DNA of 64,000 nucleotides from Escherichia coli (GTDB lineage Bacteria > Pseudomonadota > Gammaproteobacteria > Enterobacterales > Enterobacteriaceae). The notes beneath the pieces are model-generated. The model saw only the letters and a list, made by a program, of their open reading frames with translations, searched no databases and was not told where the DNA came from. The position numbers and the translations under genes were made by a program. The DNA lies in the NCBI RefSeq assembly GCF_045037415.1, contig NZ_CP173438.1. One strand, 5' to 3'. This document shows, piece by piece, positions 19,141 to 19,683 of this stretch (positions are counted from its first letter, which is position 1; every line of letters starts with the position of its first letter).

Positions 19141-19263
19141 TCACGATTTCAGCGCAATGACCAGTTTTGCCAGCCCATACAGCATCGGAGACACAGCAAT
19201 ACCAACAGCCACCCACTTAATAGCAAAAGCCAGCGCTCTGCTGATGTCATCAGTCACTGTCAC
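19141..19263 (-). CDS. Small hydrophobic peptide 3 (40 aa, GTG start overlapping the upstream stop as GTGA)
   Basis: VTVTDDISRALAFAIKWVAVGIAVSPMLYGLAKLVIALKS; one predicted TM segment. Confidence 0.3.
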   Translation of the reverse strand: MTVTDDISRALAFAIKWVAVGIAVSPMLYGLAKLVIALKS

Positions 19264-19391
19264 CCCAGCAGCCCCGACGAAGACAACATCACCCAGGCGA
19301 GGGACAGAAAAAGAGCAACCAGCATTAGTGAAAATGAAATACCGACAATCACACACAGGACCTTTGCCGGCGTTATGAGTTTGTCTGACAT
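19260..19391 (-). CDS. Small hydrophobic peptide 2 (43 aa)
   Basis: MSDKLITPAKVLCVIVGISFSLMLVALFLSLAWVMLSSSGLLG; SD AAGGGG 6 nt upstream. Confidence 0.45.
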   Translation of the reverse strand: MSDKLITPAKVLCVIVGISFSLMLVALFLSLAWVMLSSSGLLG

Positions 19392-19393
19392 AG

Positions 19394-19489
19394 CTACCCC
19401 TTAATTGCCACAATTAACTGGGATACTACCCATAAAAAAGGGATGCTCCAGACCAGCAAAAATTTCCAGTTTGGTAATTGACTAATCAT
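19394..19489 (-). CDS. Small hydrophobic peptide 1 (31 aa)
   Basis: MISQLPNWKFLLVWSIPFLWVVSQLIVAIKG; SD AGGGAG 8 nt upstream. Confidence 0.45.
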   Translation of the reverse strand: MISQLPNWKFLLVWSIPFLWVVSQLIVAIKG

Positions 19490-19560
19490 GAGTCGCAACT
19501 CCCTAATCAGTTTGCTAAAATCAATCAAGGCAGCCTCCCATAGCTTACTGCCATAAAAAC

Positions 19561-19597
19561 AAAACCCCGCTTGCTGCCAACAAACGGGGTTTTTACT
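19561..19597. terminator. Intrinsic terminator-like hairpin downstream of the endolysin
   Basis: AAACCCCG-cttgctgccaacaaa-CGGGGTTT with T-runs on both strands. Confidence 0.5.
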
Positions 19598-19683
19598 TTT
19601 ATTCACTTAGGTTTTGCCAGTTCACAGGACTTCGTGTTATCCGCCCGCGTTGGCCAACCTCATTTTTCAGCAAAATATTCTGC

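What the first reader, a model, noticed from the sequence alone, without database searches (positions are those of the whole stretch)
19141..19606. Three tandem, translationally coupled small hydrophobic peptide ORFs (31, 43, 40 aa) between endolysin and spanins, preceded by a terminator hairpin
In phage 21 and lambda the endolysin gene is followed directly by Rz/Rz1. Here a ~640-bp segment intervenes. It starts with a strong hairpin plus T-run (19561-19597) and encodes three consecutive single-TM peptides on the late strand, each with an SD or a GTGA overlap to its predecessor. All are below the usual ORF-calling size and are overlapped by longer spurious ORFs (19141-19413, 19394-19606). The arrangement could be a lysis-timing module, a membrane toxin set (type I TA-like or abortive infection), or superinfection exclusion peptides.
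Basis: seen in the sequence. Interest (0 to 1): 0.6.

Follow-up and report, generated by a model that had tools for sequence, protein, structure and literature searches.

The report
Small membrane-peptide genes inside phage lysis cassette
Between the cell-wall-cutting enzyme gene and the outer-membrane-breaking genes of this E. coli prophage lie four (not three) real, conserved but uncharacterised genes for tiny membrane peptides, led by a terminator hairpin, which probably fine-tune how the virus bursts the cell.

Summary
The 642 bp between the SAR endolysin (19684-20217) and Rz/Rz1 (18547-19041) start with a strong hairpin plus T-run and carry tightly coupled small hydrophobic ORFs on the late strand. 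There are four, not three. A 28-aa ORF (19043-19129) was missed, and the first is more likely 44 aa (TTG start) than 31 aa.

All four reading frames show purifying selection (pN/pS 0.22-0.48, against 0.6-3.9 in the other frames). Mosaic breakpoints fall on ORF boundaries. One family member in EHEC Sakai (ECs_1966) has published RIBOseq support.

RefSeq already calls three of them "hypothetical protein", and all four match PHROGs of unknown function. None matches Pfam, NCBIfam, PADLOC or Rfam.

Related prophages carry 0-1197 bp at this junction, with reshuffled combinations of the same four families. The same hairpin-plus-peptide unit also sits between unrelated endolysins and spanins in Salmonella and Enterobacter, and at other late-operon junctions.

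The most likely reading is promoterless, late-expressed accessory inner-membrane peptides that modulate lysis. This is inferred, not shown. Moron or exclusion roles remain possible. A type I toxin-antitoxin is poorly supported.

The parts
20910..21125 (-). S21-type class II holin (pinholin), 71 aa, with a dual-start MYQM motif. It is context for the cassette.
   Evidence: RefSeq annotates it as 'class II holin family protein'. ORF listing.
19684..20217 (-). SAR-type lysozyme R (rrrQ type, 177 aa). It has a weakly hydrophobic N-terminus, SAAVLALIAAGAPAP, and an E-X8-D-X5-T motif.
   Evidence: The motif is read directly from the sequence. Stx-phage endolysins are described as SAR endolysins in PMC8136144.
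19598..19683 (-). 86-nt spacer after the R stop codon. It is conserved in all insert-bearing relatives except for a hypervariable stretch of about 20 nt.
   Evidence: Comparison of the first 175 nt of 45 gap variants.
19551..19597 (-). Intrinsic-terminator-like hairpin. An A-tract, then the stem 19593-19561 (CCCCG...CGGGG), then a T-run. It is symmetric, so it could act in both directions.
   Evidence: -21 kcal/mol. Three unrelated hairpin sequences occupy the same place in relatives. A hairpin of this kind precedes the peptide ORFs in unrelated contexts.
19525..19554 (-). Nine-codon mini-ORF (MAVSYGRLP). Its TGA stop overlaps the TTG start of peptide 1 (TTGA). Its significance is unknown.
   Evidence: Read from the sequence. 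Present only in the 642- and 702-bp variants that begin with pep1.
19394..19528 (-). Peptide 1. 44 aa from TTG (MIDFSKLIRELRLMISQLPNWKFLLVWSIPFLWVVSQLIVAIKG) behind a GGGAGG Shine-Dalgarno. It has an N-terminal amphipathic segment and a C-terminal TM segment.
   Evidence: Matches phrog_6632 from the longer start. 45-aa full-length homologues exist in Citrobacter, Enterobacter and Klebsiella. pN/pS is 0.33 against 0.86 and 1.25 in the other frames. Kyte-Doolittle 19-residue window 2.19.
19260..19391 (-). Peptide 2, 43 aa (MSDKLITPAKVLCVIVGISFSLMLVALFLSLAWVMLSSSGLLG). AAGGGG Shine-Dalgarno, single TM segment.
   Evidence: RefSeq WP_001280935. phrog_4906, E = 4.5e-21. 13 nucleotide variants all keep 43 codons. 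pN/pS is 0.48 against 0.78 and 1.20. Found in 276 phage records, mostly Stx phages. The Sakai homologue ECs_1966/XECs191 has a RIBOseq signal.
19141..19263 (-). Peptide 3, 40 aa from a GTG overlapping the peptide 2 stop. It is an N-terminally truncated copy of a 60-aa family (M.KYKRILLRLTMKNGLELKAPVTDDISRALAFAIKWVAVGIAVSPMLYGLAKLVIALKS). Its real start is uncertain; RefSeq uses a 51-aa form.
   Evidence: The full-length family compared between E. coli and Salmonella gives pN/pS 0.22 against 1.53 and 2.54 in the other frames. AlphaFold2 predicts a long helix over residues 25-59 at pLDDT about 90.
19043..19129 (-). It is a paralogue of peptide 3 and a short form of a 50-aa family. Its stop lies 1 nt before the Rz ATG, and its last codons (TGGTGGTGA) form the Rz Shine-Dalgarno-like sequence.
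   Evidence: RefSeq WP_032140280. phrog_4493 and phrog_3246. Alignment A1. pN/pS 0.32-0.34. Junction sequences.
18547..19041 (-). i-spanin Rz (164 aa) with the embedded o-spanin Rz1 (18636-18821, 61 aa, lipobox VVSAC). This is the downstream coupled partner.
   Evidence: Insert-bearing cassettes share the Rz N-terminus MNRVLCVV..., while zero-gap cassettes have a different Rz TMD.

Best explanation
The R-Rz spacer holds an accessory cassette array. It consists of a terminator-like hairpin followed by four promoterless genes for 28-44-aa single-pass, tail-anchored inner-membrane peptides.

Expression. The genes have no promoter of their own. They are transcribed only when Q-modified RNA polymerase from the late promoter reads through the hairpin, that is, together with the holin, endolysin and spanin genes. 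They are translated by close coupling, each start lying within 0-11 nt of the previous stop. The last peptide's stop lies 1 nt before the Rz start, and its final codons supply the Rz ribosome-binding sequence.

Action. The peptides insert in the inner membrane at the time the pinholin, the membrane-tethered SAR endolysin and the i-spanin are there. They most likely modulate the timing or efficiency of lysis through helix-helix contacts with one of those transmembrane domains. They are dispensable and are exchanged between phages as whole-ORF modules.

Shown: real conserved coding frames, TM character, cassette shuffling, recurrent placement between endolysin and spanin, absence of a recognisable promoter, and translation of one homologue.

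Inferred: late-only expression and any effect on lysis.
For: Coding and membrane character:
- pN/pS is 0.22-0.48 in the proposed frames and higher in the others.
- ORF length is kept in 13 nucleotide variants of pep2.
- Where the pep2 ATG is lost (ATA), an upstream in-frame start coupled to ant replaces it.
- Hydropathy windows are 1.9-2.9, and the predicted TM helix has pLDDT about 90.

Translation:
- Sakai ECs_1966/XECs191 has RNA RPKM 30, RIBOseq RPKM 12.6, RCV 0.43 and coverage 0.55 in LB. It is predicted to be an inner-membrane protein with one TM helix.

Link to lysis cassettes:
- 64 of 68 related rrrQ-type cassettes carry at least one of these ORFs between R and Rz.
- The same arrangement, endolysin then hairpin then peptide then spanin, occurs with non-homologous endolysins. 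These are R21-like in Salmonella, GH19 in Enterobacter and M15 peptidase in phiSTEC1575.
- A metagenomic phage has the peptides with a holin-like ORF immediately upstream of a SAR endolysin.
- Plaque-forming or induced phages carry them.

Expression logic:
- There is no sigma-70-like site on the late strand in 18300-21400, and a strong terminator lies upstream.

Precedents for separate small membrane proteins that tune or enable lysis:
- P2 LysA lies between the endolysin and the Rz-like gene.
- LambdaSo Lcc6 is a 65-aa TM protein required in a pinholin/SAR system.
- Mu gp25 is a releasin.
Against: - No experiment links any of these peptides to lysis.
- Members of the peptide 3/4 family also occur at junctions unrelated to lysis: after tail-fibre genes at prophage ends, in a baseplate operon, and after head genes. 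The function need not be lysis-specific.
- They are absent from K-12 Qin and from four related cassettes.
- About 8% of loci carry a stop or frameshift in one ORF, so any role is non-essential.
- Peptides 3 and 4 in this window are truncated forms of longer proteins.
- There is no sequence similarity to LysA, to the releasin family (DUF2730) or to any Pfam holin family.
- The Sakai RIBOseq signal came from uninduced cultures. That could mean lysogenic expression rather than late expression.
Confidence: 0.4

Rival explanations
1. These are moron-type accessory genes. The peptides benefit the lysogen or the infected cell in a way unrelated to lysis, for example superinfection exclusion, blocking another phage's membrane step, or altering a host membrane protein. 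The R-Rz junction is simply a permissive insertion site.
For: - There is presence/absence and copy-number polymorphism at one junction.
- Relatives of peptide 3/4 sit at classical moron positions: after tail-fibre assembly genes next to host DNA, after a tail-fibre gene, and at baseplate and head junctions.
- The ECs_1966 homologue shows RNA and ribosome signal in uninduced EHEC cultures.
- The cassette brings its own hairpin.
Against: - No promoter is recognisable upstream of the peptides here or in Enterobacter.
- The terminator is upstream, not downstream, so the unit is not the promoter-gene-terminator structure of classical morons.
- The ORFs are coupled into Rz.
- There is no PADLOC match.
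- The RIBOseq signal is low and could come from spontaneously induced cells.
Confidence: 0.22
2. The peptides themselves do little. The ORFs persist mainly as translational relays. They carry ribosomes from the hairpin or terminator to Rz and supply its Shine-Dalgarno sequence, or they are hitch-hiking cassettes spread by recombination at the hairpin and at the Chi-like 3' end.
For: - The conserved 3' end, CGY TGG TGG stop, lies 1-3 nt before the next ATG in six of the ten RWW junctions examined.
- The pep2 family ends in the same nucleotides (CTGGTGGGGTGA) in another frame.
- A perfect Chi sits at this spot in 16 of 45 variants.
- Breakpoints fall exactly at ORF ends.
- Truncated forms (peptides 3 and 4 here) and disrupted copies are tolerated.
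- K-12 Qin lyses without them in principle, since R overlaps Rz there.
Against: - There is purifying selection on the amino-acid sequence, including E. coli against Salmonella at pS 0.48 and pN 0.10.
- The TM segment and the AFAI(K/R)xVA motif are conserved.
- RWW is kept even where the next element is another hairpin rather than a coupled gene.
Confidence: 0.15
3. This is a type I toxin-antitoxin or abortive-infection toxin set. The hydrophobic peptides would be membrane-depolarising toxins held in check by an antisense RNA that ends at the bidirectional hairpin.
For: - The size and hydrophobicity resemble Hok, Ldr and ShoB-type toxins.
- The hairpin has an A-tract and a T-tract, so it could terminate an antisense transcript.
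- One weak antisense promoter-like site lies at 19385-19414.
- There is a sub-threshold Rfam resemblance to OhsC, which is essentially a terminator match (E = 3).
Against: - No Rfam family reaches threshold at the locus, while a bona fide sok is detected elsewhere in the window.
- Antisense promoter-like sites are at chance frequency and at non-homologous positions in relatives, and are absent in Enterobacter.
- There is no promoter for the peptide mRNA.
- Four different peptides in one operon coupled to Rz is unlike any type I locus.
- The cassettes are shuffled without a conserved partner RNA.
Confidence: 0.05

Closest known systems
P2 LysA (separately encoded antiholin between endolysin K and lysB/lysC)
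   Same: It is a membrane protein gene located between the endolysin and the Rz/Rz1-type genes of a lysis cassette. It is non-essential and delays lysis (PMC3091744).
   Different: LysA has four TM domains and is a single gene. Here there are four peptides of 28-44 aa with one TM each. No sequence similarity was found, and the effect on timing is untested.
Shewanella phage LambdaSo Lcc6
   Same: It is a small (65 aa) single-TM protein of unknown family that works with a pinholin/SAR-endolysin/spanin system at the level of the inner membrane.
   Different: Lcc6 has an N-terminal TM and a 43-aa cytoplasmic tail, is encoded far from the lysis genes, and is strictly required. The peptides here are tail-anchored, lie inside the cassette, and are dispensable (absent in some cassettes).
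Mu gp25 releasin (DUF2730)
   Same: It is a membrane-tethered small protein encoded within a few genes of a SAR endolysin, and it acts on that endolysin's release.
   Different: gp25 is 99 aa, N-out/C-in, with a 73-aa acidic cytoplasmic domain. There is no DUF2730 match here. The long forms here have a basic N-terminal cytoplasmic segment.
Lambdoid-phage morons (Juhala et al. 2000, as cited)
   Same: They are extra genes inserted between conserved late genes, with presence/absence polymorphism and an associated factor-independent terminator.
   Different: A classical moron is promoter-gene-terminator and is expressed from the prophage. Here the hairpin is upstream, no promoter is seen, and the ORFs are coupled to the next late gene.
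Type I toxins (Hok, Ldr, ShoB)
   Same: They are small hydrophobic single-TM peptides carried on a prophage.
   Different: No antisense RNA, own promoter or long structured leader was found. The window's real hok/sok locus is elsewhere (sok at 29412-29587).
PeSL cassettes of T4-type phages (stem-loop plus early promoter flanking small novel ORFs).
   Same: Small ORFs are each preceded by a conserved stem-loop and are shuffled as units. The L094 relative has three copies of a 48-nt hairpin repeat bracketing the ORFs.
   Different: No promoter accompanies the hairpin here. The hosts are temperate enterobacterial phages, and the cassettes are in late, not early, regions.

Membership tests
Real protein-coding small genes (as opposed to chance ORFs) | Excess of synonymous over non-synonymous change in the proposed frame only, with the ORF kept open in diverged copies. 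| tested here: met
   pN/pS values are pep2 0.48, pep3-long 0.22-0.37, pep1 0.33 and pep4 0.32-0.34. The other frames give 0.76-2.9 for these comparisons. All 13 full-length pep2 nucleotide variants compared keep 43 codons.
Real protein-coding small genes (as opposed to chance ORFs) | Evidence of translation. | tested here: inconclusive
   Only a 65%-identical pep2 homologue (Sakai ECs_1966/XECs191) has a RIBOseq signal: RCV 0.43 and coverage 0.55 in LB. No data exist for this prophage or for the other three families.
Antiholin / lysis-timing accessory protein (P2 LysA, T4 RI, P1 LydB type) | A membrane protein encoded in the lysis cassette and co-transcribed with the holin. | tested here: met
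   The position between R and Rz on the late strand, the absence of an own promoter, and the TM segments. Co-transcription is inferred from these.
Antiholin / lysis-timing accessory protein (P2 LysA, T4 RI, P1 LydB type) | Loss or overexpression changes the time of lysis, or the protein binds the holin. | not testable with these tools
   This needs genetics or biochemistry.
Antiholin / lysis-timing accessory protein (P2 LysA, T4 RI, P1 LydB type) | Sequence or profile similarity to a known antiholin or holin family. | tested here: not met
   There are no Pfam hits even at E <= 10 for the first sequences, no NCBIfam hits, and only PHROGs of unknown function.
Releasin (Mu gp25, DUF2730) | A DUF2730 domain, with an N-terminal TM and a roughly 70-aa acidic cytoplasmic C-terminal domain. 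| tested here: not met
   There is no DUF2730 match. The TM is C-terminal, and the long forms have a basic N-terminus.
Type I toxin-antitoxin | A small hydrophobic toxin ORF. | tested here: met
   Hydropathy and length.
Type I toxin-antitoxin | An antisense or divergent sRNA antitoxin with its own promoter, and a toxin mRNA with its own promoter. | tested here: not met
   There is no Rfam match at threshold. No late-strand promoter was found. Antisense promoter-like sites are at chance level and not positionally conserved. Consensus scans are weak tests.
Type I toxin-antitoxin | Toxicity of the peptide when expressed alone. | not testable with these tools
   This needs inducible expression.
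Moron (promoter-gene-terminator insertion expressed from the prophage) | Insertion between genes that are adjacent in related phages. | tested here: met
   The gap is 0 in K-12 Qin and DLP12 and in four related loci, against 296-1197 bp elsewhere.
Moron (promoter-gene-terminator insertion expressed from the prophage) | An own promoter upstream and a terminator downstream. | tested here: not met
   No promoter-like site lies on the late strand. The hairpin is upstream, and the ORFs run into Rz without a terminator.
Spanin (i-spanin or o-spanin) | For an i-spanin, an N-terminal TM plus a periplasmic coiled-coil domain. For an o-spanin, a lipobox. | tested here: not met
   The peptides are 28-44 aa with a C-terminal TM, no periplasmic domain and no lipobox. 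Intact Rz/Rz1 follow.
Known anti-phage defence proteins (PADLOC) | A profile match to a defence-system component. | tested here: not met
   0 families for all the peptides at E <= 1.

The most novel reading that the evidence does not exclude
The four peptides would belong to a previously undescribed class of hairpin-led, promoterless small-membrane-protein cassettes. These move as whole-ORF modules between late-operon junctions of enterobacterial temperate phages, above all the endolysin-spanin junction, including that of most Stx phages. They would act there as a combinatorial, fast-evolving layer of lysis control on the pinholin, SAR-endolysin or i-spanin transmembrane domains. The hairpin, and a Chi-like 3' end, would serve as the recombination and expression boundary of each cassette.
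Probability: 0.25. Interest if true: 0.7.

Novelty: new variant of a known kind. Interest (0 to 1): 0.5.

Why it matters
Lysis cassettes of lambdoid phages are textbook systems thought to need only a holin, an endolysin and spanins. Recent work (Mu releasin, LambdaSo Lcc6) shows that small membrane proteins can be hidden essential or modulating players.

Here, conserved but uncharacterised small membrane-peptide genes sit inside the lysis cassette of a prophage found in the pandemic ST131 lineage. Part of the segment matches 2088 of 5426 complete E. coli genomes, and the full array is in 586. A homologue lies, mostly unannotated, just upstream of Rz in 276 phage records, chiefly Shiga-toxin phages.

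If they tune lysis timing, they would affect phage burst and, in Stx phages, the timing of toxin release.

The recurrent hairpin-plus-small-ORF unit also offers a tractable case of how phages trade very small genes.

Tried and rejected
- Known RNA families. The Rfam gathering scan of the window and a permissive scan of 18900-19800 gave nothing at the locus. The OhsC, rnk and BSnc120 hits are terminator look-alikes at E = 0.4-3.
- Known prophage sRNAs. AgvB/AsxR and the Pas sRNAs map 3' of pR' or next to the esterase and holin, not between R and Rz. A coordinate search of the Tree et al. supplement found nothing useful.
- Protein families. NCBIfam, PADLOC and Pfam gave no hits. PHROGs gave only families of unknown function.
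- Structure. AlphaFold2 on the pep3/4 alignment gave only a weak N-terminal helix plus a confident TM helix. I ran no fold search because a single helix carries no information.
- Literature. There were no hits for the protein accessions, peptide strings or ECs1966. The Stx-phage lysis-cassette survey does not mention these ORFs.
- Other families in the Sakai RIBOseq supplement: none found.
- Antisense-promoter test for the type I TA idea: sites were at chance level and not conserved.
- Overlapping 33-aa alternative-frame ORF (19149-19250). I rejected it because the substitution pattern selects the pep3 frame, and the ORF is not kept in Salmonella.
- 70-aa and 90-aa long ORFs. I rejected them as gene models. 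The 70-aa form would start inside the terminator hairpin, and the 90-aa form overlaps pep2 out of frame.
A first regular-expression terminator search returned nothing and was replaced.
- A loose hairpin-energy control was not discriminating: 23% of random windows reached -19 kcal/mol. I therefore used the stricter terminator-shape criterion.
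Full report
**What is in the sequence**

The window is a lambdoid prophage of the kind carried by E. coli ST131 (O25b:H4). It is 100% identical over the 721-nt query to many such genomes. The late genes are on the minus strand.

The lysis region, in late-strand order, reads:
- an S21-type class II holin (20910-21125);
- a YdfR-like gene;
- an antisense ORF;
- a 177-aa rrrQ-type lysozyme with a SAR-like N-terminus (19684-20217);
- a 642-bp spacer;
- Rz (18547-19041) with embedded Rz1.

In K-12 Qin and DLP12 the endolysin and Rz genes abut or overlap.

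The spacer begins with 86 nt of conserved sequence. A hairpin follows (stem 19593-19561, 15 pairs, then GTTTTTATGG). RNAfold gives -21 kcal/mol.

Four tightly spaced ORFs then follow, not three:
- pep1: 19394-19528, 44 aa from TTG behind GGGAGG, or 31 aa from ATG 19489.
- pep2: 19260-19391, 43 aa.
- pep3: 19141-19263, 40 aa from a GTG overlapping the pep2 stop.
- pep4: 19043-19129, 28 aa, with its stop 1 nt before the Rz ATG.

All four have a Kyte-Doolittle 19-residue window of 1.9-2.9. Four late-strand ORFs with a TM-grade window (one of them an overlapping alternative-frame ORF) compare with a mean of 0.46 in 2000 dinucleotide shuffles. No shuffle reached four, and the opposite strand has none.

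**Are they genes?**

RefSeq already annotates pep2, pep3 (as a 51-aa form) and pep4 as hypothetical proteins. All the exact sequences are already in public databases; the RefSeq-called forms and the 70-aa ORF containing pep1 are each on about 1000 contigs. Each matches a PHROG of unknown function. pep3 and pep4 hit the same PHROGs, so they are paralogues.

I fetched 80 loci from IMG/VR through Rz and mapped the peptides onto them. Substitution patterns select the proposed frames:

| Comparison | Proposed frame pN/pS | Other frames |
|---|---|---|
| pep2, 13 distinct nucleotide variants, all 43 codons | 0.48 | 0.78, 1.20 |
| 60-aa parent of pep3, E. coli vs Salmonella (pS 0.48, pN 0.10) | 0.22 | 1.53, 2.54 |
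| pep1 | 0.33 | |
| pep4 | 0.32-0.34 | |

In the ant-carrying variants typical of Stx phages the pep2 ATG is mutated to ATA. There an in-frame upstream ATG overlapping the stop of the preceding ant gene keeps the ORF open.

That 49-aa form is XECs191 of Hücker et al. 2017. It is one of their RIBOseq-supported novel genes in EHEC Sakai (RNA RPKM 30, RIBOseq 12.6, RCV 0.43, coverage 0.55 in LB; predicted inner membrane, one TM helix). It is now annotated as ECs_1966, between the antirepressor and Rz of prophage Sp10.

The 44-aa form of pep1 is favoured for two reasons. The PHROG profile starts there. The 45-aa homologues in Citrobacter, Enterobacter and Klebsiella align end to end.

AlphaFold2 on the pep3/pep4 alignment gives a low-confidence N-terminal helix and a confident helix over residues 25-59.

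**A shuffled cassette array**

Among 68 related loci with this endolysin type, the R-Rz gap takes the values 0, ~298, ~335, 438, ~487, 642, ~702, ~1000, 1133 and ~1197 bp. There are 46 distinct sequences.

The contents are recombinations of the same four families:
- pep1-like alone;
- long pep4 alone;
- long pep3 with pep4;
- long pep3 with pep2;
- pep3-pep2-pep3-pep4;
- pep1-pep2-pep3-pep2';
- with an ant or Rha-like gene, ant-pep2 or ant-pep1-pep2.

BLASTN breakpoints against the window fall exactly on ORF limits: 293-424 for pep2, 427-544 for pep3, and 546/582-646 for pep4 plus the Rz start.

pep3 and pep4 in this window are N-terminally truncated versions of 60-aa and 50-aa proteins. These share the motif M.KYKR..LRL..K.G.E...P.....A.AFAI(K/R).VA. 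The short pep4, with its own ATG, is kept in two diverged variants.

A few loci carry a stop or frameshift: G06/G07, G13 and G19, together about 8% of loci. Four loci have no insert. The genes are therefore accessory.

The insert-bearing cassettes share an Rz N-terminal TMD (MNRVLCVV...) that differs from the zero-gap cassettes. I cannot tell whether this reflects linkage or co-adaptation.

**The hairpin belongs to the cassette**

Three unrelated hairpin sequences occupy the same position after R in different variants.

In Enterobacter prophages the cassette follows a non-homologous GH19 endolysin and two different holins. There the order is endolysin, AAAAACCCCG...CGGGGTTTT hairpin, Shine-Dalgarno sequence, 45-aa pep1 homologue ending RWW, then an overlapped i-/o-spanin pair.

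Other cases follow the same pattern:
- Salmonella: an R21-like SAR endolysin, hairpin, 60-aa pep3 homologue, Rz.
- phiSTEC1575-Stx2k: an M15 endolysin, hairpin, a 57-aa pep4 homologue, then a lipoprotein ORF.
- A metagenomic contig: three copies of a 48-nt hairpin repeat bracket two pep3-like ORFs, a holin-like ORF, and a pep1-like ORF ending RWW directly upstream of a SAR-type lysozyme.

With a strict terminator-shape criterion, 9 of 12 family members from different contexts have such a hairpin ending within 150 nt upstream. The expectation is about 0.075 per window. RNAfold finds one in all 15 cases inspected, but a looser energy-only control was not discriminating.

**Not only lysis cassettes**

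A full HMM search of 1.84 billion representatives found only 34 clusters for the pep3/pep4 family. Some of these lie in contexts unrelated to lysis:
- after tail-fibre assembly genes at prophage ends next to host genes;
- between a baseplate-module gene and the sheath initiator;
- after head genes.

This weakens a strictly lysis-specific reading and keeps a moron-like reading alive.

pep2 was found only in E. coli and Shigella phages. In every case inspected it lies between R (or ant) and Rz, usually directly before Rz. It is in 276 phage records, mostly Stx phages, and mostly unannotated.

**Expression logic**

The consensus scan finds no sigma-70-like site on the late strand between 18300 and 21400. 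It finds none upstream of the Enterobacter homologue either.

With a strong terminator upstream, the simplest reading is transcription only by terminator-resistant, Q-modified polymerase from the late promoter. That is established lambdoid biology, but here it is an inference. Translation would then proceed by coupling into Rz.

The last codons, CGY TGG TGG stop, are conserved across very distant relatives. This holds even where no coupled gene follows. With CGC they form a perfect Chi. 16 of 45 gap variants have a Chi there, always on the late strand. The window copy is one base off.

**Function**

Nothing in Pfam, NCBIfam, PADLOC or Rfam gives a lead. The literature searches found no study of these ORFs.

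The best-supported mechanism is as follows. These are late-expressed, dispensable inner-membrane peptides that act alongside the pinholin, the SAR endolysin and the i-spanin, and that modulate lysis.

Three precedents exist:
- P2 LysA, an antiholin encoded between the endolysin and the Rz-like gene;
- LambdaSo Lcc6, a 65-aa TM protein needed for pinholin/SAR lysis;
- the Mu releasin.

None of these is homologous to the peptides here, as far as I could test.

I put this reading at about 0.4. The rivals are:
- moron or exclusion function, 0.22;
- translational relay or hitch-hiking cassette with little peptide function, 0.15;
- type I toxin-antitoxin, 0.05.

The type I idea lacks an antitoxin RNA, a toxin promoter, and any conserved antisense promoter. 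The window's real sok lies at 29412-29587.

**Verdict**

The genes are already in databases as hypothetical proteins. Their cassette behaviour, their recurrent endolysin-spanin placement across unrelated lysis modules, and their presence in most Stx phages do not appear in any paper my searches of the held library returned. Their function is open and easily testable.

Noticed in passing
L094:2423-3115 (metagenome contig Ga0102740_1000771); also L097:2394-2810: In L094, three copies of a 48-nt hairpin-containing repeat (77-94% identical) bracket successive small-TM-ORF cassettes between a capsid gene and a SAR-type lysozyme. In L097, a pep3-family gene at a prophage end is flanked on both sides by the same double hairpin. 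This looks like hairpin-bounded cassette shuffling.
   Followed up: partly
window 19043-19054 (-); gap variants G02-G12, G24, G25, G34, G44, G46: The 3' end of the last peptide ORF is CGY TGG TGG stop. With CGC this is a perfect Chi site (GCTGGTGG). It is present in 16 of 45 R-Rz gap variants, always on the late strand 12-15 nt before the Rz ATG. The window copy is GTTGGTGG. The pep2 family ends in CTGGTGGGGTGA, the same nucleotides in another frame. Chi is also enriched in the window overall (16 against 2.7 expected).
   Followed up: partly
window 18970-19041 (-), Rz N-terminus: All insert-bearing cassettes have an Rz N-terminal TM segment of the MNRVLCVV.../INRMLSAF... type. The four zero-gap cassettes have the K-12 rzpQ-like ...SRVAAIIYALVICIIVC type. 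This may be linkage or co-adaptation with the peptides. It is unresolved.
   Followed up: partly
window 19525-19554 (-): A nine-codon mini-ORF (MAVSYGRLP) starts in the terminator T-run. Its TGA stop overlaps the TTG start of the 44-aa pep1 (TTGA). It could be a coupling leader or chance.
   Followed up: no
window 19640-19665 (-), inside the R 3' spacer: A stretch of about 20 nt after AAAAATG is hypervariable among otherwise conserved spacers. In the window it holds the palindrome GTTGGCCAAC. Other variants have unrelated sequence.
   Followed up: no
window 29412-29587 (-): Rfam sok antitoxin (120 bits), so a hok/sok type I toxin-antitoxin locus lies elsewhere in this prophage.
   Followed up: no
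window 36015-36066 (+); 23751-23940 (-); 24640-24713 and 24817-24889 (-): DicF RNA, the STnc100 sRNA (a relative of the prophage PasD sRNAs) upstream of the SASA esterase gene, and two tRNA genes.
   Followed up: no
window 18335-18550 (-): A 71-aa ORF overlaps the Rz stop (ATGA). It matches the middle of the much longer phrog_2571 profile (positions 100-165 of 291), so it may be a fragment.
   Followed up: no
window 20323-20595 (+): A 90-aa ORF antisense to the late operon lies between the YdfR-like gene and R. It is annotated as hypothetical in RefSeq, and the gene at the corresponding position in phage PhiR12_2 is annotated as a DUF1823 protein. It overlaps the 3' end of the YdfR-like gene.
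   Followed up: no
protein P0091 (public collection); corresponds to window 19141-19391: In some genomes a frameshift fuses pep2 to pep3 into an 83-aa two-TM protein. The RefSeq 51-aa model of pep3 starts in that alternative frame.
   Followed up: partly
L090:2474-2831 (phage phiSTEC1575-Stx2k): A pep4-family ORF (57 aa, ending RWW) is followed, after a 1-nt gap (TGA C ATG), by a 60-aa lipoprotein-like ORF (lipobox LLVGC) in place of a recognisable Rz. This phage carries two lysis modules side by side: a class II holin with a YdfR-like gene, and two holins with an M15 peptidase.
   Followed up: no
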